A DNA stretch of 64,000 nt from Dehalococcoidia bacterium (GCA_965214745.1 OZ243978.1:2807554-2871553), one strand, 5' to 3'. Shown: positions 20,787 to 40,700, counted from the first letter of the stretch. Numbers and translations: made by a program. Notes: generated by a model not told the origin, from the sequence alone.

Positions 20787-22172
20787 ATGCCCAGCCAGCT
20801 CTTCTCATCAGCCAAGTCCATCGCCGCCGCGATTCGCGCGCGGGACGTGTCCGCCGTCGAGGTGGTCGAGGCGCATCTGGAGCGCGTCGAGCAGGTCGAC
20901 GGGCAGCTCAACGCCGTCGTCGCGCTGTGCGGCGAGCGCGCGATGGACGAGGCGCGGGCGGCTGACGACGCGCTAACTCGCGGCGAGGAGGGCGGCGCGC
21001 TGCTAGGCGTTCCCATCACCGTGAAAGACTCGCACGACACGGCGGGCGTCGTCTCCACCGCCGGCACGCTGGGGCGCAAAGACCACGTTCCTACGCGCGA
21101 CGCGACGGCGGTGGCGCGGATGCGCGCGGCGGGCGCGATAGTTCTGGGCAAGACGAACACGCCTGAGTTCACGCTGGCGTTCGAGACGGAAAACCTAGTC
21201 TACGGGCGCACGAACAACCCATACGACGCGGAGCGGACGCCGGGCGGCAGCAGCGGCGGCGCGGCGGCTATCATCGCAGTGGGCGGATCCGCGCTAGACC
21301 TCGGCACAGACACCGGCGGCAGCATCCGCGTTCCCGCCGCGTTCTGCGGCATCGCCGGACTCAAGCCCACCTCCGGGCGCGTCCCGCGGACGGGCCACGC
21401 CGTGCCGTGGGGCATGGGAGGCATGGACACGCTCACCACCATAGGGCCTATGGCGCGGTTCGTAGAAGACCTCGCGCTCGCGCTGCCCATCATCGCGGGC
21501 GCGGACGGCGTAGACCCCGCCATCCACGACGCGCCGCTCGGCGATCCCGCAGACGTGGACGTCGGCGCGCTAAGGGTGGCGTTCTTCACAGACAACGGCA
21601 CGGTTGGCCCAACCGCCGAAGTGGACGCCGCAATCCGCGAAGCCGCTCGCGCGCTAGCCGACGCGGGCGCGGACGTAACGGAAGATATGCCCGCGTTCAT
21701 CGCCGAGAACCTCGGCGGCAGCATCCTCACGGCGGACGGCGGCGCGGCGGTGCGCCGACTCGTCGACGCGGCAGGCACGACCGAAACGCATAGGTGGATG
21801 CGGCGGTTCGTCGAGGCGTCCGAGCCGCTCAGCATCGAAGAGTACACCGCGCTGCTGGAGCGCATGGACGACTACCGCAGCCGCATGCTCGCGTTCATGC
21901 GAGATTACGACGCGCTGCTCAGCCCCGTCCGCCCGTATGCCGCGCCGCCGCACGGAGAATCCATGACGACGGAGAACAGCGCCGCCAACCTGTACACCAG
22001 CGCATTCAACACCACTGGTTCGCCCGGCGCCGTCGCGCGCGTGGGGACGTCTGCGGAAGGGCTGCCCATAGGCGCGCAGGTCATAGCGCGCCCGTGGCGG
22101 GAGGATGTCGCGCTCGCGCTAGCCGCCGCGCTCGAATCCGCGCTGGGGGGATACCGAAAGCCGGAGATTTAG
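20787..22172 (+). CDS. Amidase (amidase-signature family), paralogue 1
   Basis: Catalytic Lys (ITVKDS), GGSSGG, GTDTGGSIRVPA. C-terminus ALESALGGYRKPEI. Confidence 0.9.
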   Translation: MPSQLFSSAKSIAAAIRARDVSAVEVVEAHLERVEQVDGQLNAVVALCGERAMDEARAADDALTRGEEGGALLGVPITVKDSHDTAGVVSTAGTLGRKDHVPTRDATAVARMRAAGAIVLGKTNTPEFTLAFETENLVYGRTNNPYDAERTPGGSSGGAAAIIAVGGSALDLGTDTGGSIRVPAAFCGIAGLKPTSGRVPRTGHAVPWGMGGMDTLTTIGPMARFVEDLALALPIIAGADGVDPAIHDAPLGDPADVDVGALRVAFFTDNGTVGPTAEVDAAIREAARALADAGADVTEDMPAFIAENLGGSILTADGGAAVRRLVDAAGTTETHRWMRRFVEASEPLSIEEYTALLERMDDYRSRMLAFMRDYDALLSPVRPYAAPPHGESMTTENSAANLYTSAFNTTGSPGAVARVGTSAEGLPIGAQVIARPWREDVALALAAALESALGGYRKPEI

Positions 22173-22201
22173 CGGCGATGCTTGCCGTATCTCACAGAGA
22201 T

Positions 22202-22297
22202 GTGCAGGATGAACGGGATATTCGAGGCGATGGGCGGACGGATCCCCGCAGTGCGGTTATCCTGAGCATCCCCCGAAACCCCTTCATCCTGTAAATC
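22202..22297. repeat. Inverted pair of REP-like repeats forming a long imperfect hairpin between convergent genes
   Basis: GTGCAGGATGAACGGGAT...(centre CCCCGCAGTGCGG)...CCCCTTCATCCTGTAAATC. The arms CAGGATGAA/TTCATCCTG are complementary. Confidence 0.55.
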
Positions 22298-22326
22298 TAC
22301 GCAATCGTGGGCAAATTCAGTGGCGA

Positions 22327-22770
22327 CTACCTCGGAGCGGTGGCGAGGACAACAACGAGACGGGCAAACTCGCGTATGTCTTCAATCATCGTGCCCCTTA
22401 CCCTGCTCAAAGGCTGGCTTGGGAATACTTCCAATCCTCCCGTATCGACATCGTAGCCCCAGCTAGCAATCAACTCCATATAGTTATCGATAGCCTCTCC
22501 TCGGTGATTAGGCAAATAGTGTTCAAGGTGCTGGCGACAAGGTAACATAAGAGAGTCTCCGCCTCTGATTGCCATAAGGGATACAGTTCCGCAACCACTA
22601 TTTGGGCTGTTGACCCTCAGCGAGAACCCCCGTGAGCCGATGGTGTTCGCTTGGAAACGACCGTCCCCGACACTCTCGACCGTATTCGTGAGACGCGGAA
22701 CAAGTGCGCGGCGCACTTCCACCACTAGCTCGCTTCGCCACATTTCCGGGGAAACGCGAGATCTACGCAT
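22327..22770 (-). CDS. Hypothetical protein in a lower-GC islet
   Basis: ATG 22770 is preceded by AAGGAGG at 7 nt and by a near-consensus promoter. No recognisable domain. GC is about 50% against about 65% in the flanks. Confidence 0.6.
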   Translation of the reverse strand: MRRSRVSPEMWRSELVVEVRRALVPRLTNTVESVGDGRFQANTIGSRGFSLRVNSPNSGCGTVSLMAIRGGDSLMLPCRQHLEHYLPNHRGEAIDNYMELIASWGYDVDTGGLEVFPSQPLSRVRGTMIEDIREFARLVVVLATAPR

Positions 22771-22810
22771 GCCAATCCTCCTTACAAGTTGATTATACAG
22801 CACTGCATAC

Positions 22811-22840
22811 AGTATATAGCAGGCTTTATCACTTTGTCAA
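22811..22840 (-). promoter_or_regulatory. Near-consensus sigma70 promoter of the orphan ORF
   Basis: Minus strand reads TTGACA-N16-TATATA (or N18-TATACT), about 40 nt upstream of ATG 22770. Confidence 0.6.
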
Positions 22841-23063
22841 TACGCCATCGCCAGTTGAAATCAGATTACAGGACAGGCTAAGCGCAACAAGCAACGAGAA
22901 TAGCGCCGCTCACCCTACCCTATCCCTCTGGATTCCGACTTTCGTCGGAATAACGGATTGAGGGCAGAAATAGCCAGTTTGCGGCGAGGCGACTCAGCCC
23001 CGAAAGCGGCGACGCTATGATACTCTAGCCGCTATCAGGCACATCCCCGCCAAATGACCATCG

Positions 23064-24646: not shown

Positions 24647-26044
24647 ATGTCGGACATCATCTACAGCTCCGCCAAGCGAATCGCGGAATCCATACGCGAA
24701 AAGCGCATCTCCGCTGTCGAGGTCGTCGAGGCGCATCTGGCGCGCGTCGAGCAGGTCAACGGGCAGCTAAACGCCGTAGTCGCGCTGTGCGCCGAGCGCG
24801 CGCTGGAGGAGGCGAAGGCAGCCGACGCCGCTATCGCGCGGGGCGACGAGCTTGGCGCGCTGCACGGCGTCCCTATGACGCTCAAAGACTCGCTGGACAC
24901 CGAAGGCGTCGTCACCACAGGCGGCACAATGGGGCGAAAGGACTACGCGCCTGAGCGCGATTCGACCGTGGCGGCGCGGCTGCGCGCGGCGGGCGCGATT
25001 CTGCTGGGCAAGACGAACACGCCTGAGCTTACGCTCGCGGGCGAAACGGTCAACAGCGTGTACGGGCGCACGAACAACCCGTATCTGCTGGATAGGACTC
25101 CCGGCGGCTCTAGCGGCGGCGCGGCGGCTATCGTGGCGTCCGGCGGCGCGGCGTTCGACATCGGCTCGGACACCGGCGGCTCGATACGAATGCCCGCCCA
25201 CCTGTGCGGCATCGCGGGCGTCAAGCCCAACTCCGGGCGCGTCCCTCGCACAGGGCATATCATTTCTTACGGAATGGGCGCGACGGACGCTTACACGCAG
25301 AACGGGCCAATGGCGCGATACGTAGAAGACCTCGCGCTCATCCTGCCCATCATATGCGGGCCAGACTGGGAAGACCCCGCCATCGTCCCTATGCCGCTCG
25401 GAGACCCCGCGGACGTCGATCTGGGCGCGCTTAGGATCGCGTACTACACAGATGTGGACGGCTACAAAGAGCCGTCTCAGGAGACGCGAGACGCCACGCT
25501 CGCGGCCGCGATGGCGCTGTCGGACGTCGCCGCAAGCGTGGATGAGGACGTTCCGCCGCCGCTCAGCCGCGCGCCGGACATTTCGGCGCGGGTGGGCGAC
25601 GGCGACGGGCGCGCCGGAACGCGCCGCCTGCTCGCAGCCGCAGGCACGGCGGACGCCGACGTATCCCCCAACCTAGCCAAGCGCATCGCGGACGCAAGCG
25701 CCGTATCCGCCGCCGAGTACGGCGAGGCGCTCGAAGAGCTGGACGCCTTCCGCAGCGAGATGCTGGGCTTCATGAGAGGATACGACGCCATAGTCGCGCC
25801 AGTGACCGCGCTGCCCGCCACGCCTCACGGCGAGACGTTCGAGGAGCATTACAAGAACGGCTTCTACACGGGGCCATACAACCTGACCGGTTGGCCCGGC
25901 GCGGTCGTGCGATGCGGAACGTCGTCCGAAGGCTTGCCCATCGGCGCGCAGATAATCGCGCGCGCGTGGCGCGAGGACGTATCGCTCGCCATAGCCTCGT
26001 TCTTGGAATCCGCGCTCGGCGGCTGGAGGAAGCCGCCGCTGTAA
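24647..26044 (+). CDS. Amidase (amidase-signature family), paralogue 3
   Basis: MTLKDS, GGSSGG, GSDTGGSIRMPA. C-terminus FLESALGGWRKPPL. Confidence 0.9.
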   Translation: MSDIIYSSAKRIAESIREKRISAVEVVEAHLARVEQVNGQLNAVVALCAERALEEAKAADAAIARGDELGALHGVPMTLKDSLDTEGVVTTGGTMGRKDYAPERDSTVAARLRAAGAILLGKTNTPELTLAGETVNSVYGRTNNPYLLDRTPGGSSGGAAAIVASGGAAFDIGSDTGGSIRMPAHLCGIAGVKPNSGRVPRTGHIISYGMGATDAYTQNGPMARYVEDLALILPIICGPDWEDPAIVPMPLGDPADVDLGALRIAYYTDVDGYKEPSQETRDATLAAAMALSDVAASVDEDVPPPLSRAPDISARVGDGDGRAGTRRLLAAAGTADADVSPNLAKRIADASAVSAAEYGEALEELDAFRSEMLGFMRGYDAIVAPVTALPATPHGETFEEHYKNGFYTGPYNLTGWPGAVVRCGTSSEGLPIGAQIIARAWREDVSLAIASFLESALGGWRKPPL

Positions 26045-26054
26045 TCGCCGCCCC

Positions 26055-27092
26055 ATGACCACGGAAACCGACGCCTATATGCTGTTCACGCAGGCGCACG
26101 CCCACTACGTGCGCGGTCTCAGGCGCGCCGTGCGAGAGCGGCTAGAGGCGGCGCACGGCGCGAAGTGGTGGGAAAGCGGCGCGCTTGCCGTCTTGACCGA
26201 GCCGCAGAGAGACAACATCGTTCGCGCAATGGATAGGACATCCGATCAGCCGCCGGAGGATTTTCTGGACGCGATCCACTTCCCTAGAATCGTGGGCGTC
26301 AACCACAAGCAAGCGTTCGCAGACGCATTTCCCAACGCCAGCTCGACGTTCATCAGGATGCGAAACATAGCCGCAATGCGTAACGATTGGGCGCATGTGC
26401 AGACGCTGCGGTATCCTAGCGTCATCCAATCCATGAATGCGATGAAGGGCATATTAGCGTCGCTGGACTGCAAAGAGGCGCTGGAGATAGAGAAGATGAG
26501 CGACGACTTGGAGAAGTATCCGCAAACCGCCTCAGGAGAGCTAACCGACGCGGGCGAGCCTATGGATGACGGCGACGATTCGGATGTCGAGATCGAACGC
26601 ATTGACGTGTTGGATTATTGGAAACGGATTCATTCTTATTTGGTTCTAGAAAAGGAGGTGTCTCTTCCTGAAGATGGATCGAACGGTCAAGCCGAAGTCC
26701 TGCTGAGGGCGCGCAACACGGCGCCGGACATCGAAGGCAACCTTATGATAATCTTCCGGTCCATCAGAGTGGAGTACTACCAAGAAGGCGGGGGCAGAAA
26801 CTATGAGAGCATGAAAGACTTGGGTCCGGGGGACAGCGATCGAATAATGTTGCGGTTTTCTCCCGGCGCGTTGGCTACGGTCGAGTTGGAGCTTTGCGGC
26901 GATCTTGATTTAGCCACGCTAATTCGCGTCAGAAGAAAGAGCAGTCTGCCCGATGATGTCGTAGCTCCCATTCTGGCTGAATTCGTTGCAGAATTCGAGA
27001 AGATTGGCATCAAGAAAACGATGGACGATCTTATGGAAAGAATCAAGTCTATAGATGAGACGACAACCATTCGACAATTGTCCGACGTTTGA
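26055..27092 (+). CDS. Swt1-like HEPN domain protein with an unknown C-terminal domain
   Basis: The N-terminal 140 aa or so carry KWWESG...FPRIVGVNHKQAFADAFPN...IRMRNIAAMRNDWAH (R-N-x-x-A-H, an Rx4H HEPN motif, codons 109-114 at nt 26379-26396). An acidic linker follows, then a beta-rich domain I do not recognise. GC falls to about 40-50% after about 26400. Confidence 0.65.
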   Translation: MTTETDAYMLFTQAHAHYVRGLRRAVRERLEAAHGAKWWESGALAVLTEPQRDNIVRAMDRTSDQPPEDFLDAIHFPRIVGVNHKQAFADAFPNASSTFIRMRNIAAMRNDWAHVQTLRYPSVIQSMNAMKGILASLDCKEALEIEKMSDDLEKYPQTASGELTDAGEPMDDGDDSDVEIERIDVLDYWKRIHSYLVLEKEVSLPEDGSNGQAEVLLRARNTAPDIEGNLMIIFRSIRVEYYQEGGGRNYESMKDLGPGDSDRIMLRFSPGALATVELELCGDLDLATLIRVRRKSSLPDDVVAPILAEFVAEFEKIGIKKTMDDLMERIKSIDETTTIRQLSDV

Positions 27093-27098
27093 ACAGGT

Positions 27099-27371
27099 TT
27101 GGCAGATGTCAGACCCTGGGCGCGAACAATGCTGAGAGAGTTGAGCAACCTAAGAGACGCTTACCATATCCCTCGAGAGTCTGAATTAGGCAATCGGTTC
27201 ACAAGTATCTCCCAGCAAATCGAATACTTCTATCGGCATATTCGCAGCTTGAACGAGGCTATTGCCGGCATAGATCTAACACAGATCGCACAAGTCGTTC
27301 AGCGTCTAGAGGAGATTCGACTTGCAATCGTGCGCGACCACGACGCGATCCTCGATATAAAGGCTGATTAG
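27099..27371 (+). CDS. Small helical hypothetical protein, partner of the HEPN gene
   Basis: 90 codons from TTG 27099 (6 nt after the HEPN stop), or 80 from ATG 27129. Low GC. Predicted all-helical (LNEAIAGIDLTQIAQVVQRLEEIRLAIVRDHDAILDI). No recognisable domain. Confidence 0.45.
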   Translation: MADVRPWARTMLRELSNLRDAYHIPRESELGNRFTSISQQIEYFYRHIRSLNEAIAGIDLTQIAQVVQRLEEIRLAIVRDHDAILDIKAD

Positions 27372-27384
27372 CGCGCCCCACCAC

Positions 27385-28848
27385 GTGAACTGCATGAGCT
27401 GGCAAGACGACTACCGCCGCAAGCTGACCACCCCCGAAGACGCCGTCTCCATCGTCGAGGACGGCGACCGCGTTTTCGTGCCGCTCTCCGAACAGCCGAT
27501 GACGCTCATCGCCGCGCTTGCCGAACGGGCGCGCGACGTGCGGGGCGCGACGCTCAGCGTATCCGTGCCGCAGTTCGACCTCGCGCCTTTCCTAGAAGCG
27601 GGCTGGAACGTGGACGTCGAGAACTTCATAGGCCCATTCGGCAGGACCTACGAGAACGCGGGGCAGGCGCCCTACTCGCCGCTCGCTTTCTCGCTCACGT
27701 TCAAGGCGAACGACGAACGCCCAAGCGAAGCGCGCCCCATAGACGTGGCGCTGGTCGTCGTGTCGCGCCCCAACAGGCAGGGGCAGATAACCTTTGGGCC
27801 GCAATCTTGGTACAAGCGCGGCTTCGCCCAGCGCGCTCGCAAAGTCGCAGCCGAAGTCCACCCGTCGCTCATCCGCACCTACGGGGACGGGTTCATGCCC
27901 GCTAGCGGCATCGACAAGCTGGTCGAGGGCAAGGCGTCGGACGCAACCGCAGAATCTCTGCTCGCCGCAACCGCCGAGTTGCCACGCGGACGTCGGGATG
28001 CGCTCGCGGACATCATCGTGCGCGTCGCGCCGAGCCGTCTGGCGGCCGCCGCGCCCCACTTCGCGGACATAAACCTAGACAGGCTGCGGCGACAGCTTGG
28101 CATAGACGAGCCTTCCGCGGAATCCCGCGCCATCGCGGACAATGTGAAGCCGCTTGTGCCGAACGGCGCGACGATTCAGATAGGCGTCGGAACGCCGTCG
28201 TCTTACCTGCCGCGGCTGGGCGTCTTCGACGACAAGATAGACTTGGGGCTGCACTCCGAACTTACCGTGCCGGGCGTCGCCAAGCTGGTGGCGGCGGGCG
28301 TCATCAACGGCGCGCGCAAGACGATACACCGCGGGCGCGCGGTGGCGACCAGCTGGAGCGGCGCGAACGACGAAGACTTAGCCATAATCGACGACAACCC
28401 GCTGTTCGAGCTGTACTCGCCCGAATACACGCTGAACCCCGCCGTGATTGCGAGCAACCACATGCAAACCGGCATCAACAACGCGCTGAACGTGGACTTG
28501 CGCGGGCAGATTGGCTCGGAAAGCATCTTCGGAGGGCAGATGTACAACGGCATCGGCGGCCAGCCGGAGACGCATCTCGGCGCGCTGTACTCGCCGGGCG
28601 GGCGCGCGATAACGCTGCTGTACTCCACCGCTATCGGCGGCGCGGTGTCACGCATCGTTCCGCGCTTGGAGTCCGGCGAGATAGTGACCATGCCGCACTT
28701 CTGGGCGGACACGGTGGTTACCGAGTACGGCGTGGCGCAGCTGCTGGGCAAGAATCACCGCCAGCGGGCGGATGCGCTGATAGGCATAGCCCATCCCGAC
28801 TTCCGCGCCGAGCTGCGCCGAGCCGCCGCCGGCTGGCTGCTGGCGTGA
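27385..28848 (+). CDS. Acetyl-CoA hydrolase/transferase family protein (4-hydroxybutyrate CoA-transferase-like)
   Basis: Family-typical LHSELTVPG and GIGGQPE regions. 487 aa. GTG 27385 or ATG 27394 start. Confidence 0.75.
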   Translation: MNCMSWQDDYRRKLTTPEDAVSIVEDGDRVFVPLSEQPMTLIAALAERARDVRGATLSVSVPQFDLAPFLEAGWNVDVENFIGPFGRTYENAGQAPYSPLAFSLTFKANDERPSEARPIDVALVVVSRPNRQGQITFGPQSWYKRGFAQRARKVAAEVHPSLIRTYGDGFMPASGIDKLVEGKASDATAESLLAATAELPRGRRDALADIIVRVAPSRLAAAAPHFADINLDRLRRQLGIDEPSAESRAIADNVKPLVPNGATIQIGVGTPSSYLPRLGVFDDKIDLGLHSELTVPGVAKLVAAGVINGARKTIHRGRAVATSWSGANDEDLAIIDDNPLFELYSPEYTLNPAVIASNHMQTGINNALNVDLRGQIGSESIFGGQMYNGIGGQPETHLGALYSPGGRAITLLYSTAIGGAVSRIVPRLESGEIVTMPHFWADTVVTEYGVAQLLGKNHRQRADALIGIAHPDFRAELRRAAAGWLLA

Positions 28849-31356: not shown

Positions 31357-32079
31357 CTAGGGATTTCGTCGCAAGTCTAGTTCAGCTCTGAGCCGACGGT
31401 TCTCAGCTTCGAGGGCAAGCCGCCGCTCGCGCTCCGCCAGCCGTCCTATGCGCTCGTCCCGGTGCGTCATCAGGTAAAGTCCAGTCTCAGGATCCCGAAA
31501 GCGCAACTCCCCATGCTCCCAGCACACATCCAGCCCCAAGACCTTGCTGCGCCCCCAGTATATCCCATCGCCCACCTGAACTATCGCTATGGGACGGTAT
31601 ACACCATCCACCAACTCGTCGCCAGCCAATCCTGGACGGCGCACCCACCCTGCATCGGGGTTCGGCTCGAAGCGCCAGTACTCCTGCGCTTCGTAGTCCT
31701 CGTAGCCCTTGCGCTTGGCGGTCGCGTCGCGGCGGCGGGTGCTGGGCGAAGCCACCTCCAGAACGAAGTCCGGCGGCTTGCCCCACTCCTCTATCGCGTA
31801 GCCGCGACGGTCGATGATGGCGTCGCGATCCACGTCGAACACTACGAGCAGATCGGGTATGAGTATCCCCCGCCGACTCTGGTCGTGCCGCCATCCGATG
31901 GGGACTTCGCTGAGGATGAGCGTGGTGGGAGAGTCTCCGAAGTGGAGTATCAGCGCGGTCTGGTGTCCGGGCAGGTGGAGATGGATGGGATTGAGCATAT
32001 CGCCCCTGGGCGGGAATACCGGGAAGCGCTGGACCCTCGTTGCGGATGGCTGCGGCGCGGCGAGCCTCGTGGTCGTCAT
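31357..32079 (-). CDS. Uma2/DUF820 family PD-(D/E)XK endonuclease, array copy 1 (240 aa, shortest tail)
   Basis: PDLLVVFDVD...PPDFVLEVASPSTRRRDATAKRKGYEDYEAQEYWRF core. 30-aa tail ...ERERRLALEAENRRLRAELD. Start MTTTRL (ATG 32079) with TAGGAGG SD. TATAAT at 32132-32127. Confidence 0.8.
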   Translation of the reverse strand: MTTTRLAAPQPSATRVQRFPVFPPRGDMLNPIHLHLPGHQTALILHFGDSPTTLILSEVPIGWRHDQSRRGILIPDLLVVFDVDRDAIIDRRGYAIEEWGKPPDFVLEVASPSTRRRDATAKRKGYEDYEAQEYWRFEPNPDAGWVRRPGLAGDELVDGVYRPIAIVQVGDGIYWGRSKVLGLDVCWEHGELRFRDPETGLYLMTHRDERIGRLAERERRLALEAENRRLRAELDLRRNP

Positions 32080-32110
32080 AGAGCGCCTCCTAACGCGGTC
32101 TTGCATGGTT

Positions 32111-32143
32111 TCACGGGATGAAGAGGATTATACGGGATATTCG
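32111..32143. repeat. REP-like repeat in the Uma2 spacer (contains the -10 box of copy 1)
   Basis: TCACGGGATGAAGAGGATTATACGGGATATTCG. The reverse complement contains TATAAT. Confidence 0.55.
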
Positions 32144-32283
32144 ATATGGCTGCTTTGCCGGATGAACACGGCGAGAGAGAGAATCCCATCCTAACCGAAT
32201 CCTAGCGCGGCTAGTCGCGCCCCAAGACGCGCGGCGGCAGACTGCGCTTGCGCGGCATCCCGCCTATCCCTTCACAATCTGCG

Positions 32284-33090
32284 CTAGATATCCTTTTGGT
32301 GGTCTAGCTCTGCTCTGAGGCGGCGGTTCTCGGCTTCGAGAGCTAGCCGACGCTCGCGCTCCGAGCCGTATGCGGTCTCGGCAGCTAGCCGACGCTCGCG
32401 TTCCGCCAACCGCCGATCATACTCGGCAATCCGCCGTTCACGCTCCGCCAGCCGTCCTATGCGCTCGTCCCGGTGCGTCATCAGGTAGAGTCCGCTCTCA
32501 GGATCCCGAAAGCGCAATTCCCCATGCTCCCAGCACACGTCCAGACCCAAGACATTGCTGCGTCCCCAGTATATCCCGTCGCCCACCTGAACTATCTCAA
32601 TGGGACGGTACACCCCATCCACCAGCTCATCGCCAGCCAGCCCCGGGCGGCGCGCCCAGCCGGCATCGGGGTTCGGCTCGAAGCGCCAGTACTCCTGCGC
32701 TCTGTAGTCCTCATAGCCCTTGCGCTTGGCGGTCGCGGCGCGGCGGCGGGTGCTGGGGGACGCCACCTCCAGAACGAAGTCAGGCGGCTTGCCCCACTCC
32801 TCTATCGCGTAGCCGCGACGGTCGATGATCGCGTCGCGATCCACGTCGAACACTACGAGCAGATCGGGTATGAGTATCCCTCGCCGACTCTGGTCATGCC
32901 GCCATCCGATAGGGACTTCGCTGAGGATGAGCGTGGTGGGAGAGTCTCCGAAGTGGAGTATCAACGCGGTCTGGTGTCCGGGCAGGTGGAGATGGATGGG
33001 ATTGAGCATATCGCCCCTGGGCGGGAATACCGGGAAGCGCTGGACCCTCGTTGCGGAAGGCTGCTGCGCGGCGAGCCTCGTGGTCGTCAT
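32284..33090 (-). CDS. Uma2/DUF820 family endonuclease, array copy 2 (268 aa; Asp to Ala in the STRRR(D/A)ATAKRK motif)
   Basis: N-terminal 210 aa differ from copy 1 at about 7 positions. 58-aa tail. TATAAT at 33141-33136. Confidence 0.8.
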   Translation of the reverse strand: MTTTRLAAQQPSATRVQRFPVFPPRGDMLNPIHLHLPGHQTALILHFGDSPTTLILSEVPIGWRHDQSRRGILIPDLLVVFDVDRDAIIDRRGYAIEEWGKPPDFVLEVASPSTRRRAATAKRKGYEDYRAQEYWRFEPNPDAGWARRPGLAGDELVDGVYRPIEIVQVGDGIYWGRSNVLGLDVCWEHGELRFRDPESGLYLMTHRDERIGRLAERERRIAEYDRRLAERERRLAAETAYGSERERRLALEAENRRLRAELDHQKDI

Positions 33091-33119
33091 AGCATGCCTC
33101 CTGACGCGGTCTTGCGTGG

Positions 33120-33152
33120 CTACGGGATGAAGGAGATTATACGGGATATTCG
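33120..33152. repeat. REP-like repeat in the Uma2 spacer (contains the -10 box of copy 2)
   Basis: CTACGGGATGAAGGAGATTATACGGGATATTCG. Confidence 0.55.
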
Positions 33153-33270
33153 AGATGGCTGCTTTGCCGGAGCGACCGCGGGCGGGAGAAATCCCCTCCT
33201 AACCGAACCCTAGCGCAGCTAGTAGAACCCAAGACGCGCAGCAGCGCCCCGCCTATCCATGCAATCCGCG

Positions 33271-34119
33271 CTAGATATCCGTTCGGTGGTCTAGCTCAGC
33301 TCTAAGGCGGCGGTTCTCGGACTCGAGGAATAGCCGACGCTCGCGCTCCGCGTCGTATGCAGTCTCGGCAGCTAGCCGACGCTCACGCTCCGCAATCCTG
33401 CGCTCGTACTCGGCAATCCGCCATTCGCGCTCCGCGTCGTATGCAGTCTCGGCAGCTAGCCGCCGCTCACGCTCCGCAATCCTGCCCCGCCGCTCGTCCC
33501 GGTGCGTCATCAGGTAGAGTCCGCTCTCAGGATCCCGAAAGCGCAACTCCCCATGCTCCCAGCACACATCCAGCCCCAAGACCTTGCTGCGCCCCCAGTA
33601 TATCCCCTCGCCCACCTGAACTATCTCGATGGGACGGTATACACCATCCACCAACTCGTCGCCAGCCAGCCCCGGACGGCGCGCCCACCCTGCATCGGGG
33701 TTCGGCTCGAAGCGCCAGTACTCCCGCGCCCCGTAGTCCTCATAGCCCTTGCGCTTCGCAGTAGCGTCGCGGCGGCGGGTGCTGGGAGACGCCACCTCCA
33801 GAACGAAGTCCGGCGGCTTGCCCCACTCCTCTATCGCGTAGCCGCGCCGGTCGATGATGGCGTCTCGATCCACGTCGAACACTACGAGCAGATCGGGTAT
33901 GAGTATCCCCCGCCTACTCTGGTCATGTCGCCATCCGATAGGGACTTCGCTGAGGATGAGCGTGGTGGGAGAGTCTCCGAAGTGGAGTATCAGCGCGGTC
34001 TGGTGTCCGGGCAGGTGGAGATGTATCGGATTGAGCATATCGCCCCTAGGCGGGAATACTGGGAAGCGCTCGACCTTCGTTGCGGATGGCTGCGACGCGG
34101 CGAGCCTCGTGGTCGTCAT
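33271..34119 (-). CDS. Uma2/DUF820 family endonuclease, array copy 3 (282 aa, longest tail)
   Basis: The 72-aa tail contains an internal near-perfect 84-bp duplication (33343-33400 against 33427-33484). TATAAT at 34163-34158. Confidence 0.8.
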   Translation of the reverse strand: MTTTRLAASQPSATKVERFPVFPPRGDMLNPIHLHLPGHQTALILHFGDSPTTLILSEVPIGWRHDQSRRGILIPDLLVVFDVDRDAIIDRRGYAIEEWGKPPDFVLEVASPSTRRRDATAKRKGYEDYGAREYWRFEPNPDAGWARRPGLAGDELVDGVYRPIEIVQVGEGIYWGRSKVLGLDVCWEHGELRFRDPESGLYLMTHRDERRGRIAERERRLAAETAYDAEREWRIAEYERRIAERERRLAAETAYDAERERRLFLESENRRLRAELDHRTDI

Positions 34120-34150
34120 AGCGAGCCTCCTGAAACGATCTTGCGTGGCT

Positions 34151-34174
34151 TCACAGGATTATACGGGATGTTCG
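34151..34174. repeat. REP-like repeat in the Uma2 spacer (contains the -10 box of copy 3)
   Basis: TCACAGGATTATACGGGATGTTCG. Confidence 0.5.
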
Positions 34175-34252
34175 AGATGGTTGCTTTGCCGGTGCGACGG
34201 CGAGCGGAAAGAAAAATCCCCTTCATACTGCCTATCCATACAACAATCTGCG

Positions 34253-35080
34253 CTAGAGGTCCGTTCGGCGGTCTAGCTCGGCTCTGAGGAGACGGTTCTC
34301 GGCTTCGAGGGCTAGCCGCCGTTCGCGCTCGGCATCGTATGCGGTCTCGGCAGCTAGCCGCCGCTCGCGCTCCGCCAGCCTGCGCTCATACTCGGCAATC
34401 CGCCGCTCGCGTTCCGCGTCGAGGATAGTCTCCGCCGCCAGCCTGCCCAACCGCTCGTCCCGGTGCGTCATCAGGTAGAGTCCGGTTCCAGGATCCCGAA
34501 AGCGCAACTCCCCATGCTCCCAGCACACGTCCAGCCCCAAGACCTTGCTGCGCCCCCAGTATATCCCGTCGCCCACCTGAACTATCTCGACGGGACGGTA
34601 CACACCATCCACCAACTCGTCGCCAGCCAACCCCGGACGGCGCACCCACCCTGCATCGGGATTAGGCTCGAAGCGCCAGTACTCCTGCGCTTCGTAGTCC
34701 TCATATCCCTTGCGCTTCGCGGTCGCGTCGCGGCGGCGGGTACTGGGAGACGCCACCTCCAGAACGAAGTCCGGCGGCTTGCCCCACTCCTCTATCGCGT
34801 AGCCGCGCCGGTCGATGATAGCGTCTCGATCCACGTCGAACACTACGAGCAGATCGGGTATGAGTATCCCCCGCCTGCTCTGGTCATGCCGCCATCCGAT
34901 AGGGACTTCGCTGAGGATGAGCGTGGTGGGAGAATCTCCGAAGTGGAGTATCAACGCGGTCTGGTGTCCGGGCAGGTGGAGATGGATGGGATTGAGCATA
35001 TCGCCCCTGGGCGGGAATACCGGGAACCGCTGGACCTTCGTTTCGGAAGGCTGCTGCGCGGCGAGCCTCGTGGTCGTCAT
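34253..35080 (-). CDS. Uma2/DUF820 family endonuclease, array copy 4 (275 aa)
   Basis: 65-aa tail. An extended -10 TGGTACAAT (35135-35127) follows the fmt stop directly. TAGGAGG SD. Confidence 0.8.
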   Translation of the reverse strand: MTTTRLAAQQPSETKVQRFPVFPPRGDMLNPIHLHLPGHQTALILHFGDSPTTLILSEVPIGWRHDQSRRGILIPDLLVVFDVDRDAIIDRRGYAIEEWGKPPDFVLEVASPSTRRRDATAKRKGYEDYEAQEYWRFEPNPDAGWVRRPGLAGDELVDGVYRPVEIVQVGDGIYWGRSKVLGLDVCWEHGELRFRDPGTGLYLMTHRDERLGRLAAETILDAERERRIAEYERRLAERERRLAAETAYDAERERRLALEAENRLLRAELDRRTDL

Positions 35081-35135
35081 AGAGCGCCTCCTAGCGTGTC
35101 GAGCGACAGTCTGTTCTTAGCTGTCGATTGTACCA

Positions 35136-36619: not shown

Positions 36620-39010
36620 TCAGATCATCTCCGCCCACGTTGCGCCGCTGCCGCCGCGCTCCCGCGGCTCTTGCCCGAAGTCGCCTACCGAGCGATGGCG
36701 GCGCAGACGCTCGCGCACCATGTTTCTGAGCGCGCCCGTGCCGCGCCCATGTATCACGCGCACTTTGGAAAGCCCGTCGCGCATCGCATGATCTAGGAAC
36801 TCTTCCAGCTCGATCTCCGCGTCCGCGGCGCGCCTGCCGCGAATGTCAAGCTCGTCGCTTGCGAGCGCGGGCGCGAGCCGCGCGCTGTACGCTGGCGACG
36901 GGTCAGGGCTTTCGTCCGCACCGTCCGCCGATTCCCGCTCGATGCGCGACAGCCGGTGAAGCTCGACGCTCACGCGGACGCGACCGATGGCGACTTCCAC
37001 CTCCTCGGTGTGACTGTCCATGGACACGATGCGCCCGCTAAGCCCCATGCCGCGCACGAATACGGTGTCGCCGACTGAGAGCGGTCGAGCGGCGAGCGCG
37101 GGCGGTCTGGCGGGCGCCGGCTGGGGAGGCTCGACTGCGGCGAGCCGTTGGCGAACGCGACGAACGCGACGCGCGGCTGCGGACGCGGATTCGGCGGGCG
37201 CTCCCCAATCCAGCGACGCTTCCACGCTATCCAGCTTTCGGCTCGCGTCGCGCGTTCTTCGCGCGATGTCGCGTCGGGCGGCGTCCAGCATATCGTCGCG
37301 GTGGCTGACGATGTACTCCAGCTGCTCTACCAGTTCGCGACGCAGACTCTCAGCCTCCGCCCTGTCGCGCTCCGCGTTCTCGACGCTCGCTTGCAGCCGC
37401 TGCCGCTCGCGCTGAAGCTCGCTCAGCCAGTCCTCGAACAGCAGGTGGCGCGGCTCCATAAGCGAGCGGGCGCGTTCGAGAACGCTCGCGGGAAGCCCCA
37501 GCCGCTCGGCTACCGCCATAGCGTAGCTGCGCCCCGGCGCGCCTATCGTTATCTCATAGGTGGGTTCGAGCGTGTCGGGATCCAGCTCGAAGCTGGCGTT
37601 AGCCATGCGGGGGGATGTCTCCGCGAACGCGGCTACGCTGCGATGGTGGGTGGTTGCGATGGTCGATACGCCCGTGTCCGCGAGATGCGCGAGAATGGAC
37701 TTGGCAAGCGCCGAACCCTCTTCGGGATCGGTGCTTGCGCCAATCTCGTCGAGAAGAACGAGCGAATCGGCTGCGGCGTGTCGCAAAATTCTGACGAGGC
37801 TTCGGATGTGCGAGCCGAACGTGGATACGGATTCGGCTATGCTCTGCTGATCTCCGATGTCCGCGAAGACGCCGTCGAACACGGGGAGCGCGCTTCCCTC
37901 GTCCGCCGCAATCTGCAATCCGCATTGGTGCATGAGCGCGGCTATGCCGACTGTTTTCATGGCGACGGTCTTGCCGCCGGTGTTGGGTCCGGTGATGACG
38001 AGCGCGCGCCAGTCGGGTCCGACGCTGACAGTGAGCGGCACGGCATCGCGCCCAAGCAGCGGGTGGCGGGCGCGGATGAGGCGGAGGCGCTGCCCGCCGC
38101 TGACAGGAACGGGCGCCGAGGCGCCGAGGCTGAGCGCGTACCTCGCTCGGGCGAGCGCGAAATCCACCTTGGCGGTGGTCTCGTTCGCGCCGCGAATATC
38201 TTGCGCCACGCCGCCGACTAGCTCCGACAGATCTCGCAGAACGCGCGCGACCTCGCGCTCCTCCTCCAATGCAAGCTCTCGCCATTCGTTGCACAGCTCT
38301 ACCGTCGAGAACGGCTCGACGAACACGGTGGCGCCTGTGTTGGAAGCGTCGTGGACGATGCCCGCGACGCGGCGGCGGCGCTCGGCTTTGACCGGCACCA
38401 CGAGCCTGTCGGCGCGAACCGATATGACCGGATCCTGAAGCGAGTCGCGCGCGGCGTCCGACTCTATGAAGCGCTGAAGCGAGTCCGTAACCCGCTCGTA
38501 GGCGTCGCGCACCTGGGAGCGGAGCGCGCGCAGCGTAGGCGTCGCGTCGTCGACGACCTCGCCGCGCTGCCCAATCTTGGCGCGAATCTGCCGCTGAAGC
38601 TCGCGCAGATCCGGAACCAGCCCGCCAAGCTCGGCCATGAGCGGAGCTACGTTTGCCGCGCCGGCAAGCGCGCGACGCAGGCGGCGATGCACCTCCAGCG
38701 TGCCGGCTATGGCGAGCAGCTCGCCGCCTGTGAGCGCTCCGCCAAGCTCGGCGCGGGTTACGGATTGCGACGTGTCGGCGTCGGACGAGAGGCTGAGATC
38801 GCCTATCTCGTCCAGCAGAGCGCGCGCGTCAGCGGTCTCGCGCTGAAGCCGCGCCACCTCATGCGGGTCTACCGACGGCGTGATGGAGAGCGCCATCGCG
38901 CGCGCCTCGTAGAAGGTGGCGTGACCCGACAGCCGAGCGCGAATCTCGTCGAAGTCGAGCAGGGCTAGCGACGCTTGCTGAAGCGCGTCGCGCTCGGCGG
39001 CGTCGTCCAT
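36620..39010 (-). CDS. mutS2: Endonuclease MutS2 (MutS domain V ATPase plus C-terminal Smr)
   Basis: Walker A ITGPNTGGKTV, DEIGASTDPEEG, C-terminal Smr (ELDIRGRRAADA...VRVIHGRGTGALR). Likely start at ATG 39010. Confidence 0.9.
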   Translation of the reverse strand: MDDAAERDALQQASLALLDFDEIRARLSGHATFYEARAMALSITPSVDPHEVARLQRETADARALLDEIGDLSLSSDADTSQSVTRAELGGALTGGELLAIAGTLEVHRRLRRALAGAANVAPLMAELGGLVPDLRELQRQIRAKIGQRGEVVDDATPTLRALRSQVRDAYERVTDSLQRFIESDAARDSLQDPVISVRADRLVVPVKAERRRRVAGIVHDASNTGATVFVEPFSTVELCNEWRELALEEEREVARVLRDLSELVGGVAQDIRGANETTAKVDFALARARYALSLGASAPVPVSGGQRLRLIRARHPLLGRDAVPLTVSVGPDWRALVITGPNTGGKTVAMKTVGIAALMHQCGLQIAADEGSALPVFDGVFADIGDQQSIAESVSTFGSHIRSLVRILRHAAADSLVLLDEIGASTDPEEGSALAKSILAHLADTGVSTIATTHHRSVAAFAETSPRMANASFELDPDTLEPTYEITIGAPGRSYAMAVAERLGLPASVLERARSLMEPRHLLFEDWLSELQRERQRLQASVENAERDRAEAESLRRELVEQLEYIVSHRDDMLDAARRDIARRTRDASRKLDSVEASLDWGAPAESASAAARRVRRVRQRLAAVEPPQPAPARPPALAARPLSVGDTVFVRGMGLSGRIVSMDSHTEEVEVAIGRVRVSVELHRLSRIERESADGADESPDPSPAYSARLAPALASDELDIRGRRAADAEIELEEFLDHAMRDGLSKVRVIHGRGTGALRNMVRERLRRHRSVGDFGQEPRERGGSGATWAEMI

Positions 39011-39071
39011 GGGCTGGCGCTGGTCAATCGGGTAGTTCACGGCGTCATTGTAGCAGGCATCGACCCAACGG

Positions 39072-40700
39072 CTAGAACTCCACTGCGCCATCCACCGCGA
39101 GCAGGCGGAGCGCGTCCAGCATGGCGCTTGCCGCCATGCGCCGCTGGTCGGGCGATGGAATGGCGGCTGTCAGGCTGTCGAGTATCCGCAACGTCTCCCT
39201 ACGCCCGTCTATGCCGGCGGCGAGCGCGGCTACGGGTTTGCTCAGGGGCAAGCCGTCGGGACGCTGCGGGCTGACGAGCGCGTCGCTCCACGCGAATTCG
39301 CCATCCGCGAATATGGGCATTCGCTCGACGCGCGCGCCGCGCGCGAGACGCGGGACGGAGCGCAGAACGCGCTCGGCGTCCAGCGCGTTTCGCCTTGCGC
39401 CGCGCTCGGACTCGACAGCGTTTATGGCGGCTATCGTTTCGGGCGGGAGCTCCCCACGCTCCAGAACCGCGCGCTCGTAACCGCGCGGCGGCTGGCCGGC
39501 GACGGCGCGAACGAACGCCGCGCGCGCCGTCTCGTCTTCGGCCGCGCCCAGCAGACGGCGCGCCTCCCAGAAGTACGAGTCCACCGCGCGGTTGCTGGCG
39601 TAGAAGAGCGCGGCAAGCTCGCGGAAGTGGGCGTATTCGGTGCGATATAGACGCTGGTATACGCGGGCGGCGGATTCGCGCATGGATGCGTCGCGCGAGA
39701 CGGCGCGGATGTATGCCGCCGCCATGACCGCGGACATCATCGCTAGATGCACGCCGGACGAGAAGAGCGGATCTACGAAGCAAGCAGCGTCTCCGACGAG
39801 TATCCAACCGTCGCCAGCGGTTCGTTCGGAGGTGTACGACCAATCCTTGACGACGCGCGGCGCGGCTACGGATCGGGCGGCGCACAGCATCCGCCGCGTT
39901 CGGGGGGCGGCGTCCAGCTGTCGGCGGAAGTATCGCGGAACGCTGAGCGCGGCTATATCGTCCCGCCCTCGCTCGGAATCCACAACGACGCCGACGCTCG
40001 CCAGACCGCCGGACAGCGGGATATTCCACACCCAGCCGTTTTCGTAGGATTCGATGAAGATGTTGGTTTCGTCCGGTTCGGGCAGCCGCTCTCCGCCCTC
40101 GAAGTAGCCGTAGACCGCCATGTTGCGGAAGCGGTCGTCCCACCGCCGCAAGCCGAGCGCGCGCCCGACGAGCGCGGATTGTCCGCTGGCGTCGATAACC
40201 CACTCGGCGGCCGCCACGCGCGCGGCGCCGTCGGCGGAGCGGTAGCGGACGCCCGAAACCCGCTCGCCGTCGCGCAAGACGGCGGTGACGGCGCACCGCT
40301 CGCGCACGTCCGCGCCGCTCGATCGCGCGTTGTCCAGCAAGATGGCGTCGAACTCGGCGCGGTGAACCTGATAGGCGTGCGGGTAGGCGCGGTTCGTCTC
40401 CGCGAACCGCCAGCTCCAAGCGTCGGGTTCGCGCCCCCAAAGCATCGTCGCGCCGTACTTCTTGGGGAAGCCGGCGGCTGCCACCCTATCCAGAACGCCA
40501 AGTTCTTCCAGCACCGGCATGGACGCGGGCAAGAGCGATTCGCCCACGTGGTCGCGCGGGAAGCGCTCGCGTTCTAGCAGCGTAACCGAGAAACCGTCTC
40601 GCGCGAGCAGCGCGGCGGCGGTAGAGCCGCCCGGACCGCCGCCGATGACCACGACGTTCGAGCGGGTCACTCCCCTCGCTCGTCCGAAAGCTCTTGCCAT
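39072..40700 (-). CDS. Flavin-dependent halogenase-like FAD oxidoreductase
   Basis: VVVIGGGPGGS FAD fold. GWVWNIP matches the WxWxIP halogenase signature. FVDPLFSSGVHLA. The start is either ATG 40700 or GTG 40670, which overlaps the GH32 stop (GTGA). Confidence 0.65.
   Translation of the reverse strand: MARAFGRARGVTRSNVVVIGGGPGGSTAAALLARDGFSVTLLERERFPRDHVGESLLPASMPVLEELGVLDRVAAAGFPKKYGATMLWGREPDAWSWRFAETNRAYPHAYQVHRAEFDAILLDNARSSGADVRERCAVTAVLRDGERVSGVRYRSADGAARVAAAEWVIDASGQSALVGRALGLRRWDDRFRNMAVYGYFEGGERLPEPDETNIFIESYENGWVWNIPLSGGLASVGVVVDSERGRDDIAALSVPRYFRRQLDAAPRTRRMLCAARSVAAPRVVKDWSYTSERTAGDGWILVGDAACFVDPLFSSGVHLAMMSAVMAAAYIRAVSRDASMRESAARVYQRLYRTEYAHFRELAALFYASNRAVDSYFWEARRLLGAAEDETARAAFVRAVAGQPPRGYERAVLERGELPPETIAAINAVESERGARRNALDAERVLRSVPRLARGARVERMPIFADGEFAWSDALVSPQRPDGLPLSKPVAALAAGIDGRRETLRILDSLTAAIPSPDQRRMAASAMLDALRLLAVDGAVEF

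What the first reader, a model, noticed from the sequence alone, without database searches (positions are those of the whole stretch)
31357..35135. Tandem array of four near-identical Uma2/DUF820 nuclease genes whose coiled-coil tails differ by whole heptads
- **Gene set:** Four head-to-tail minus-strand genes lie at 31357-32079, 32284-33090, 33271-34119 and 34253-35080. Their first 210 aa differ at only a handful of positions (about 7 between copies 1 and 2 by eye).
- **Family match:** They fit the Uma2/DUF820 PD-(D/E)XK pattern (PDLLVVFDVD ... PPDFVLEVASPSTRRRDATAKRKGYEDY.A.EYWRF).
- **Tails:** After residue 210 every copy switches to a charged helical tail made of ERERR(L/I)A and AETAYDA modules, ending in LEAENRRLRAELD. 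Tail lengths are 30, 58, 72 and 65 aa. Relative to the shortest copy these are +28, +42 and +35 aa, all multiples of 7.
- **Internal duplication:** Copy 3 has a near-perfect 84-bp (28-aa) duplication (33343-33400 against 33427-33484). This shows how length changes arise.
- **Copy 2 variant:** Only copy 2 has RRRAATAKRK in place of RRRDATAKRK, losing a family-conserved Asp.
- **Spacers:** The 130-200 bp spacers are homologous. Each carries its own -10 box (TATAAT at 32132-32127, 33141-33136 and 34163-34158; TGGTACAAT at 35135-35127) and a TAGGAGG SD. The copies therefore look individually expressed.
- **Divergence:** Substitutions between copies include synonymous ones, for example CTT against CTC in ...GLY....
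- **Why it matters:** No biochemical role is established for Uma2 proteins. A locus that keeps one nuclease head on a graded set of coiled-coil stalks suggests a hetero-oligomeric or ruler-like assembly, or phase-variable length switching by repeat recombination.
Basis: partly seen in the sequence, partly recalled or inferred. Interest (0 to 1): 0.72.

Follow-up and report, generated by a model that had tools for sequence, protein, structure and literature searches.

The report
Uma2 nuclease genes with heptad-stepped tails
Four neighbouring copies of an uncharacterised, probably selfish nuclease-like gene (Uma2 family) have almost identical bodies but helical tails that differ by whole 7-residue blocks, and this 7-residue rule holds across the wider subfamily, so the tail is a built-in, recombining length module of unknown purpose.

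Summary
Four head-to-tail minus-strand genes of 240, 268, 282 and 275 aa all pass Pfam Uma2. They keep the family's PD-EXX-K residues (D76, E108, K122). The AlphaFold2 model matches solved DUF820 structures. Heads are 93-94% identical in DNA, with dS about 0.2 and dN/dS about 0.1, so these are old, selected paralogs and not an assembly artefact.

Tails are strings of 7-residue modules. The source genome appears to hold at least 13 such paralogs of 240-289 aa, and every length is 2 mod 7. A strain 98% identical at the same locus has orthologues whose tails differ by 0, 14 and 21 aa. In 92 of 95 distant homologues the distance from head to terminal motif is in the same phase mod 7. Independent arrays exist elsewhere, including one of seven genes.

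Tandem Uma2 cassettes and their selfish proliferation are already published. The heptad-quantised, recombining tail was not found in the literature searched. Whether the tail is a coiled coil or a single charged helix, and what it does, remains open. Phase variation and four independent promoters are not supported.

The parts
34253..35080 (-). Copy 4 (first in transcription order), Uma2-family gene, 275 aa, tail modules L-C-B-D-B-C-B-Y-Z
   Evidence: ORF. Pfam Uma2 E 1.1e-12. Module string. The orthologue in L003 is also 275 aa.
33271..34119 (-). Copy 3, Uma2-family gene, 282 aa, tail L-B-C-B-D-B-C-B-Y-Z
   Evidence: ORF. Pfam E 2.2e-12. AF2 model has pLDDT 92.7 with helix 206-281. Foldseek hits 9y1l, 6okh, 3ot2 and 1wdj.
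32284..33090 (-). Copy 2, Uma2-family gene, 268 aa, tail L-B-D-B-C-B-Y-Z, carries D118A
   Evidence: ORF. Pfam E 3e-11. The orthologue in L003 is 254 aa and keeps D118.
31357..32079 (-). Copy 1 (last in the array), Uma2-family gene, 240 aa, minimal tail L-B-Y-Z
   Evidence: ORF. Pfam E 2.4e-12. The 240-aa product is in the public collection and the 249-aa extension from the ATG at 32106 is not.
34253..34456 (-). Tail-coding part of copy 4 (residues 209-275 plus stop): heptad modules ending in LEAENRL LRAELD
   Evidence: TRF period 21 at 34356-34417. There are 8 substitutions within gene nt 630-656, which spans the head-tail junction (window 34425-34451), against an otherwise almost identical orthologue. 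This looks like a short conversion tract.
33271..33495 (-). Tail-coding part of copy 3 (residues 209-282 plus stop)
   Evidence: TRF period 42, 3.5 copies, at 33331-33477.
33334..33485 (-). Internal 84-bp (28-aa, four-heptad) duplication in copy 3: 33334-33401 and 33418-33485
   Evidence: the repeat finder: 68 nt, 94% identity, spacing 84.
32284..32466 (-). Tail-coding part of copy 2
31357..31455 (-). Tail-coding part of copy 1 (shortest: two stalk heptads plus the cap)
32737..32739 (-). GCC codon, the D118A substitution private to copy 2 of this genome
   Evidence: Sequence. The column is at least 90% Asp in 120 homologues. Orthologue P0129 has Asp.
32080..32283 (-). Spacer between copy 2 and copy 1, with TATAAT at 32132-32127 and AGGAGG before the start
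   Evidence: No -35/-10 pair or terminator by scan.
33091..33270 (-). Spacer between copy 3 and copy 2, with TATAAT at 33141-33136
34120..34252 (-). Spacer between copy 4 and copy 3, with TATAAT at 34163-34158
35081..35135 (-). 55-bp leader between the fmt stop codon and copy 4. It is not homologous to the internal spacers except at the ribosome-binding site. It holds TGGTACAAT (35135-35127) and a CGACAG/CTGTCG inverted repeat.

Best explanation
**What it is**
- This is a chromosomal cassette of four paralogous Uma2 (COG4636/DUF820) genes. The family is PD-EXX-K nuclease-like, biochemically uncharacterised, and already regarded as selfishly proliferating or as 'solo toxin' genes.
- These genes belong to a subfamily that adds a C-terminal alpha-helical tail. 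The tail has a linker heptad (ERxGR[IL]A), then a variable string of 7-residue modules (ERERR[IL]A, AETAYDA, EYERR[IL]A), then a fixed two-heptad leucine-zipper-like cap (LEAENRR LRAEL).

**Shown here**
- The array is old and each copy is kept by purifying selection.
- Tails change by duplication, deletion and exchange of 21-bp-multiple modules, within a gene and between paralogs by gene conversion.
- Almost only in-phase (7n) products are seen, across paralogs, strains and the subfamily.

**Inferred**
- The phase rule reflects a structural need to keep the terminal cap in register with the head through a continuous helix.
- The cap, helped by the stalk, most likely pairs two chains, as expected for a nuclease fold that normally works as a dimer.
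- Because co-resident paralogs share the cap, they may also pair with each other.
- Stalk length would then be a tolerated or selected variable rather than a switch.
For: **Family**
- Pfam Uma2 passes in all four copies.
- D76, E108 and K122 are present, plus H46, matching the published D/E/K/His set.
- The AF2 head matches 9y1l, 6okh, 3ot2, 1wdj and 3ijm.

**Age and selection**
- dS is 0.16-0.24 between copies and dN/dS is 0.06-0.15.

**The same locus in a second strain**
- L003 is 97.9% identical over 12.7 kb and has the order MutS2-DUF192-fmt-Uma2 x3.
- Orthologue tail differences are 0, -21 and -14 aa.

**The heptad rule**
- 13 paralogs are attributed to the 2,927,413-bp source contig, and 4 close relatives come from other assemblies. 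All 17 lengths are 2 mod 7.
- In 92 of 95 homologues at about 50% identity the anchor-to-anchor distance is 6 mod 7, ranging from 13 to 104 aa.
- 41 of 56 more distant cluster representatives share one phase.
- Lag-7 autocorrelation is 0.226 against a background of about 0.12.

**Recombination**
- Copy 3 carries an 84-bp duplication.
- Each paralog spells a module 'word' following the grammar L-(B|C|D)n-B-Y-Z.
- k-mer painting shows a mosaic o2 head, an unmatched o3 tail, and 8 substitutions clustered in 27 nt across the head-tail junction of c4/o4.

**Shared cap**
- In L012 the heads are 40-48% identical, but the last 25 aa are 64-92% identical and up to 68 of 75 nt match. Tail differences there are still multiples of 7.

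**Recurrence**
- L005 has seven genes of 264, 264, 278, 264, 257, 257 and 243 aa, all 5 mod 7.
- Further arrays occur in L012, L024, L029, L049 and L077.

**Helix**
- Residues 206-281 form one helix with pLDDT 95-98.
Against: - No activity, oligomeric state or phenotype is known for any Uma2 protein.
- The stalk is a poor canonical coiled coil. It has one Ile/Leu per heptad, Ala next to it, 53% charged residues, and a hydrophobic position offset from the cap's a/d register.
- Multiples of 7 follow automatically if change happens only by duplicating 21-bp units, so selection for phase is inferred and not shown.
The other loci could not be fetched.
- The anchors for the mod-7 test are regular expressions, and 22 of 131 proteins could not be anchored.
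Confidence: 0.6

Rival explanations
1. The stalk is a single alpha-helix (ER/K-type SAH) that acts as a semi-rigid spacer. Only the two-heptad cap binds something, either another chain or a partner. The paralog set then gives heads tethered at graded distances, roughly 1.5 Å per residue, about 45-120 Å.
For: - Tails are 52-54% charged with net charge near zero.
- Opposite-charge i,i+4 pairs outnumber like-charge pairs about 2:1 or more.
- There is only one Ile/Leu per heptad.
- Relatives have Ala/Glu/Arg-only stalks such as AEARAGT repeats, with almost no hydrophobic seam.
- AF2 gives an isolated straight helix with very high confidence.
Against: - A free helix has no obvious need for 7n lengths, yet phase is kept in 92 of 95 relatives.
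- The conserved Ile/Leu-Ala pair every seven residues is not needed in an SAH.
- The rare exceptions add 18 residues (7+11), a coiled-coil-type periodicity.
Confidence: 0.22
2. Tail length has no function. The genes are selfish and multiply, the tail is repetitive DNA that expands and contracts, and the 7n pattern is only the footprint of a 21-bp repeat unit.
For: - The founding paper argues that the family's primary 'function' is to spread, with insertion sites close to random and tandem duplications present.
- Singletons sit inside housekeeping operons.
- Several L005 copies share the same tail, so diversity is not obligatory.
Against: - Different lineages use unrelated modules (EREARIA, AQSERDA, AESQRNTERQARLA, ARIVAEGARDADRA), but always with period 7 or 14.
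- Small non-7 indels are almost absent from tails of proteins only 50% identical.
- The tail end is better conserved than the head among co-resident paralogs.
Confidence: 0.15
3. The array is a contingency locus. Tail length switches at high frequency by repeat slippage, giving phase-variable protein forms.
For: - A recent 84-bp duplication is present.
- Tail lengths differ between strains that are 98% identical.
Against: - Repeat units are long and degenerate (63-71% matches by TRF), unlike slippage-prone tracts.
- Strain differences are mosaics with many substitutions rather than simple unit gains or losses.
- All forms stay in frame, so nothing is switched off.
Confidence: 0.03
4. Assembly artefact: one or two real copies were inflated into four.
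For: Related short-read assemblies break inside the arrays (L001 and L003 end within or just after a copy).
Against: - Copies differ at 36-47 of 645 head positions, mostly synonymous, and have different spacers and tails.
- An independent assembly has at least three copies in the same order.
Confidence: 0.01

Closest known systems
Uma2 / COG4636 / DUF820 paralog cassettes (Feder & Bujnicki 2005, PMC551604; Makarova et al. 2009, PMC2701414)
   Same: - Same fold, same PD-EXX-K residues and same Pfam family.
- Many copies per genome, insertion at seemingly arbitrary chromosomal sites, and tandem runs. A run of four consecutive genes was reported in Crocosphaera watsonii.
- The family is described as mostly forming cassettes of paralogous genes, and is read as a selfish element or solo toxin.
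   Different: - Published members and solved structures are about 150-190 residues long and have no long helical tail.
- The word 'coiled' does not occur in the founding paper.
- The subfamily here adds an N-terminal FPxFPPRxDMxNP motif and the heptad-modular tail.
Chicken MHC BG (butyrophilin-like) gene arrays
   Same: Tandemly arrayed paralogs have cytoplasmic tails built from many heptad repeats encoded by 21-nucleotide units. The tails differ in length between genes and haplotypes through expansion and contraction (PMC4046983).
   Different: These are eukaryotic membrane immune proteins. Each heptad is its own exon, and there is no nuclease domain and no shared ancestry. The likeness is in evolutionary mechanics only.
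Type I restriction specificity subunits (HsdS) with variable central coiled-coil repeats (own knowledge, not tested here)
   Same: A nuclease-associated protein in which the number of short helical repeats changes geometry, and with it the length of the DNA target spacer. It is the best precedent for a helical 'ruler' in a nuclease system.
   Different: The repeats are 4 aa long and lie between two DNA-recognition domains in one chain. The system needs HsdM and HsdR partners, and no such partners flank these genes.
ER/K single alpha-helix (SAH) spacers (own knowledge)
   Same: Long, highly charged Glu/Arg-rich helices that are stable on their own and act as spacers. The composition resembles the stalk here.
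   Different: SAH domains show no conserved hydrophobic residue every seven positions and no quantised length.
PADLOC phage-defence candidate PDC-S03
   Same: Copy 3 matches three PDC-S03 profiles, best E 8e-12, over the nuclease core.
   Different: - The match is partial (residues 68-139).
- It is a candidate with no description in the library and no paper was found.
- The flanking genes are housekeeping, not a defence island.

Membership tests
Uma2 / COG4636 / DUF820 (PF05685) | Profile HMM match above the curated threshold | tested here: met
   43.5-48.2 bits against a cut-off of 27 in all four copies.
Uma2 / COG4636 / DUF820 (PF05685) | PD-EXX-K active-site variant: Asp after Pro, Glu in the next core strand, Lys moved to the following helix (all3650 D83, E111, K127) | tested here: met
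   P75-D76 and E108 are invariant and K122 is at least 90% conserved in 120 homologues. All are present in the four copies. Motif definition from PMC551604.
Uma2 / COG4636 / DUF820 (PF05685) | Conserved N-terminal His (all3650 H43) | tested here: inconclusive
   H46 is at least 90% conserved and lies in the N-terminal helix. Its equivalence to H43 was not shown by structural superposition.
Uma2 / COG4636 / DUF820 (PF05685) | Restriction-endonuclease-like fold as in 1wdj and 3ot2 | tested here: met
   AF2 model with pLDDT 92.7. Foldseek probability is 1.00 for 9y1l, 6okh, 3ot2, 1wdj and 3ijm.
Uma2 / COG4636 / DUF820 (PF05685) | Nuclease activity | not testable with these tools
   No biochemical study of any member was found.
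Canonical dimeric coiled coil | Hydrophobic residues at both a and d positions through most heptads | tested here: not met
   The stalk has Ile/Leu at one position only (39% hydrophobic family-wide), with Ala beside it. Only the last two heptads have a Leu/Asn/Leu/Leu a-d pattern.
Canonical dimeric coiled coil | Length changes restricted to heptad (or 11/18-residue) steps | tested here: met
   17 of 17 close paralogs, 92 of 95 homologues, and exceptions of +18 residues.
ER/K single alpha-helix | At least about 75% Glu/Lys/Arg with dense i,i+4 salt bridges and no hydrophobic periodicity | tested here: not met
   52-54% charged with a conserved Ile/Leu-Ala pair every 7 residues. The 75% threshold is from own knowledge.
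Phase-variable contingency locus | Near-perfect short tandem repeats prone to slippage | tested here: not met
   TRF finds only period 21 and period 42 arrays with 63-71% matches.
Type II toxin-antitoxin pair | Adjacent small antitoxin gene | tested here: not met
   No ORF other than Uma2 copies lies between fmt and the CoA-transferase gene. Makarova et al. also class Uma2 as a likely solo toxin.

The most novel reading that the evidence does not exclude
- The heptad-module string is a functional code and not a by-product.
- Co-resident paralogs share one zipper cap and assemble through their tails into homo- and hetero-dimers.
- The two nuclease heads in each dimer are then held at graded, quantised separations or orientations, a built-in set of molecular rulers that widens the range of DNA (or other) targets.
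- Nuclease-induced breaks or recombination within the tail-coding repeats continually reshuffle the set.
- This would be a new way for bacteria, or for a selfish element, to diversify a nuclease: by varying geometry instead of the recognition surface.
Probability: 0.1. Interest if true: 0.8.

Novelty: new variant of a known kind. Interest (0 to 1): 0.55.

Why it matters
- Uma2/DUF820 is one of the large bacterial protein families with solved structures but no known activity. It can make up over 2% of the genes in some genomes.
- The tailed subfamily offers a concrete handle. Its architecture rule is simple and strongly conserved: head, then n heptads, then a fixed cap, with n from 0 to about 13.
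- That rule can be tested directly by changing n or breaking the phase.
- The locus is also a clean natural example of protein length evolving in quantised steps, through recombination among 21-bp modules and gene conversion between paralogs. Orthologous tails are already rearranged between strains that are 98% identical.
- If stalk length proves functional, it would be a new way of diversifying a nuclease. If not, it still documents how structural periodicity filters repeat-driven indels.

Tried and rejected
**Searches that led nowhere**
- The other paralogs of the source genome (P0002, P0005, P0006) could not be fetched, because no gene record was available. Their arrangement is therefore unknown.
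- The genome-contig scan with copy 3 gave only one 40% relative, in a Dehalococcoidia MAG. The organism was not identified beyond a likely Chloroflexota affinity.
- The viral-contig scan with the family alignment found no relatives. A phage origin is unsupported, although the L005 array sits beside portal and terminase genes.
- The first metagenome scan, with the four-copy alignment, found nothing.
- NCBIfam gave no meaningful hit. PHROGs gave only an unknown-function family.
- Rfam found no RNA family in or near the array.
- No sigma-70 promoter pairs or intrinsic terminators were detected.
- A literature search for PDC-S03 gave no papers.

**Ideas considered and rejected**
- A bZIP-like reading was rejected because the stalk has net charge near zero and is not basic.
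- The long antisense ORFs over each copy were rejected as genes, because the synonymous/nonsynonymous pattern fits the minus-strand frame.
- The 249-aa start for copy 1 was rejected.

**Not possible with these tools**

Full report
**1. The observation**

The four minus-strand ORFs are at the stated coordinates and encode 240, 268, 282 and 275 aa. Aligned, they are almost invariant for about 215 residues. After that they differ by gaps of 42, 14, 0 and 7 residues. All four pass the Pfam Uma2 model (43-48 bits against a threshold of 27). tblastn finds no further copy in the 64-kb window.

Head DNA identity is 92.7-94.4%. Pairs differ at 20-32 synonymous and 7-12 nonsynonymous codons. Nei-Gojobori estimates give dS of 0.16-0.24 and dN/dS of 0.06-0.15. 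These are old paralogs, each under purifying selection. They are not a collapsed or inflated repeat.

- The 84-bp duplication in copy 3 is real (68 nt, 94%, spacing 84).
- The D118A change in copy 2 is present.
- The TATAAT and TGGTACAAT boxes sit at the stated coordinates, and the three internal spacers are homologous.

There are three corrections:
- The ribosome-binding site is AGGAGG in all four copies, but TAGGAGG in only two.
- No -35/-10 pair or intrinsic terminator is detected.
- The leader of copy 4 is unrelated to the other spacers.

**2. Family membership**

In a 120-sequence alignment, P75, D76 and E108 are invariant. K122, D118 and H46 are at least 90% conserved. This matches the PD-EXX-K site defined for COG4636 (all3650 D83, E111 and K127, plus H43).

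An AlphaFold2 model of copy 3 has mean pLDDT 92.7 and pTM 0.80. Its head matches the solved but uncharacterised DUF820 structures 9y1l, 6okh, 3ot2, 1wdj and 3ijm. D118 is conserved in this subfamily but is not one of the published catalytic residues. The orthologue of copy 2 in a sister strain keeps Asp, so D118A is a private change of unknown effect.

**3. The tail is modular and its length is quantised far beyond this array**

Written in heptads, each tail follows one plan:
- a linker heptad, ERxGR[IL]A;
- a string of ERERR[IL]A (B), AETAYDA (C) and EYERR[IL]A (D) modules;
- a fixed cap, LEAENRR LRAEL.

Cluster look-up shows 13 such proteins attributed to the same 2,927,413-bp contig as the window genes. 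Their lengths are 240, 254, 254, 261, 268, 268, 275, 275, 282, 282, 282, 289 and 289 aa. Four more come from related assemblies. All 17 lengths are 2 mod 7.

Among homologues of about 50% identity, the modules differ (EREARIA, AQSERDA, AESQRNTERQARLA, ARIVAEGARDADRA). Even so, the distance from a head anchor (YLxTH) to the terminal L-x-x-E-L motif is 6 mod 7 in 92 of 95 proteins, spanning 13 to 104 residues. The three exceptions carry one or two copies of an 18-residue (7+11) module.

Further support:
- Lag-7 self-identity is 0.226 against about 0.12 at other lags.
- In a more divergent, independent set of cluster representatives, 41 of 56 anchored proteins share one phase. At least three of the 15 exceptions (anchor distances of 233-238 residues) are anchoring errors.
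- The subfamily is sizeable, with 116 clusters (at 50% identity) at E <= 1e-30.

**4. Comparison between strains**

Locus L003 (GCA_964347705.1) is 97.9% identical to window 45080-32273. It shows MutS2-DUF192-fmt followed by Uma2 genes of 275, 261 and 254 aa before the contig ends.

By head sequence these are the orthologues of copies 4, 3 and 2:

| Pair | dS | Tail difference |
|---|---|---|
| c4 / o4 | 0.007 | 0 aa |
| c3 / o3 | 0.033 | 21 aa |
| c2 / o2 | 0.105 | 14 aa |

k-mer painting shows how the changes arise:
- c4 and o4 are identical except for 8 substitutions within 27 nt spanning the head-tail junction, plus one more.
- At that site o4 encodes ERIGRLAAETTLDA, the version found in other paralogs of the genome.
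- The o3 tail shares no 18-mers with copy 3.
- The o2 head is a mosaic.

Gene conversion between paralogs is therefore active, and the tail is its hotspot.

**5. Recurrence elsewhere**

- A 4.67-Mb genome (L005) has seven consecutive genes of 264, 264, 278, 264, 257, 257 and 243 aa, all 5 mod 7. They have 109-bp spacers and near-identical heads.
- Metagenome loci L012, L024 and L029 carry arrays of three or four genes. L027, L049, L070 and L077 carry pairs.
- In L012 the heads are only 40-48% identical, yet the last 25 residues are 64-92% identical and up to 68 of 75 nt match. Tail lengths still differ by 0 or 14 residues. Tail ends are thus homogenised or co-selected among co-resident paralogs.
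- Singletons sit inside housekeeping operons: between acyl-CoA carboxylase subunits in a Dehalococcoidia MAG, next to dnaE, and next to gatB.
- The window array itself lies between fmt and a family III CoA-transferase gene, with no mobile-element or defence genes beside it.

**6. What kind of helix**

AlphaFold2 predicts one uninterrupted helix, residues 206-281, with pLDDT of 95-98. The tail is therefore not disordered.

The stalk is 52-54% charged with net charge near zero. It has one Ile/Leu per heptad next to a near-constant Ala. This is weaker than a canonical a/d core. Only the cap has a canonical pattern (Leu d, Asn a, Leu d, Leu a here; Val/Leu/Leu/Leu in relatives).

- The strict 7n (or +18) length rule and the conserved Ile/Leu-Ala pair favour a coiled-coil-type assembly.
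- The composition leaves a single-alpha-helix spacer with a terminal zipper as a serious rival.

**7. What is known**

The founding paper on COG4636 (PMC551604) already reports several of these features:
- extensive proliferation;
- near-random insertion;
- tandem duplications, including four consecutive genes in Crocosphaera watsonii;
- a selfish-element interpretation.

Makarova et al. (PMC2701414) call Uma2 a likely solo toxin that mostly forms cassettes of paralogous genes. Expansions are also noted in Thermus and Thermosynechococcus. No biochemical function was found in the literature searched.

None of the papers read mentions a C-terminal helical repeat tail, and 'coiled' does not occur in the founding paper. 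Solved structures are 146-190 residues long and have no tail.

The nearest analogy in evolutionary mechanics is the chicken BG gene array, whose heptad-repeat tails are encoded by 21-nt units and vary in length.

**8. Verdict**

The array as such is a known kind of thing. The new element is a subfamily-wide, heptad-quantised, recombining helical tail with a fixed cap. It is seen here in an unusually clear form: four adjacent genes, about 13 per genome, and strain polymorphism.

The descriptive account (points 3-5) is well supported. The functional account, pairing through the tail with length as a tolerated or selected variable, is inference. Phase variation, assembly artefact and four proven promoters are not supported.

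I rate this a new variant of a known kind, with moderate interest.

Noticed in passing
window 26055-27092 (+), within a low-GC patch (26001-28000, GC 0.57-0.59 against about 0.65): A 345-aa ORF matches the Swt1-like HEPN domain (PF18731, E 1.6e-7). It sits in one of the two lowest-GC kilobases of the window, so it may be a horizontally acquired defence or toxin gene.
   Followed up: partly
window 38596-38670 (-): ARAGORN calls a tRNA-Met here, inside the MutS2 ORF (36620-39091). Rfam's tRNA model does not report it at gathering score, so it is probably a false positive.
   Followed up: partly
window 22001-23000: This is the lowest-GC kilobase of the window (0.565). It lies just after the ORF at 20787-22172 and was not examined.
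   Followed up: no
window 53001-57000 (+): Strong positive AT skew (0.21-0.37) lies over the nusA-infB region (NusA 52892-54592, IF-2 54946-56778). It probably reflects charged, A-rich coding segments, but this was not analysed.
   Followed up: partly
window 7425-10592 (+): A 1055-aa ORF has Sortilin-Vps10 and BNR/Asp-box repeats.
   Followed up: no
L005 2912-5825 (-) beside the array at 6195-12344: The seven-gene Uma2 array in this 4.67-Mb genome directly abuts phage portal and terminase-like genes. However, no relative of the subfamily was found in the IMG/VR viral contigs.
   Followed up: partly
L002 5947-6795; L006 3280-4170 and 8001-8966; L004 8001-8873: Single tailed Uma2 genes are inserted inside or between housekeeping operons (between acyl-CoA carboxylase subunits, before gatB, before dnaE). 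This echoes the cyanobacterial DUF820 gene inside the hox operon.
   Followed up: partly
window 31357-32079 and L005 11613-12344: In both complete arrays the last gene in transcription order has the shortest tail (240 aa; 243 aa). With only two cases this may be chance.
   Followed up: no
residues 17-31 of all four copies (for example window 34028-34071 in copy 3): A subfamily-specific N-terminal motif, FPxFPPR(D/G)DMxNPI, is at least 90% conserved across 120 homologues. It lies in a lower-confidence, non-helical part of the model, and its role is unknown.
   Followed up: no
window 35081-35135: The 55-bp leader between fmt and copy 4 holds an inverted repeat (CGACAG...CTGTCG) just downstream of the TGGTACAAT box. 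It could be a small hairpin that affects read-through from fmt, but it was not folded.
   Followed up: no
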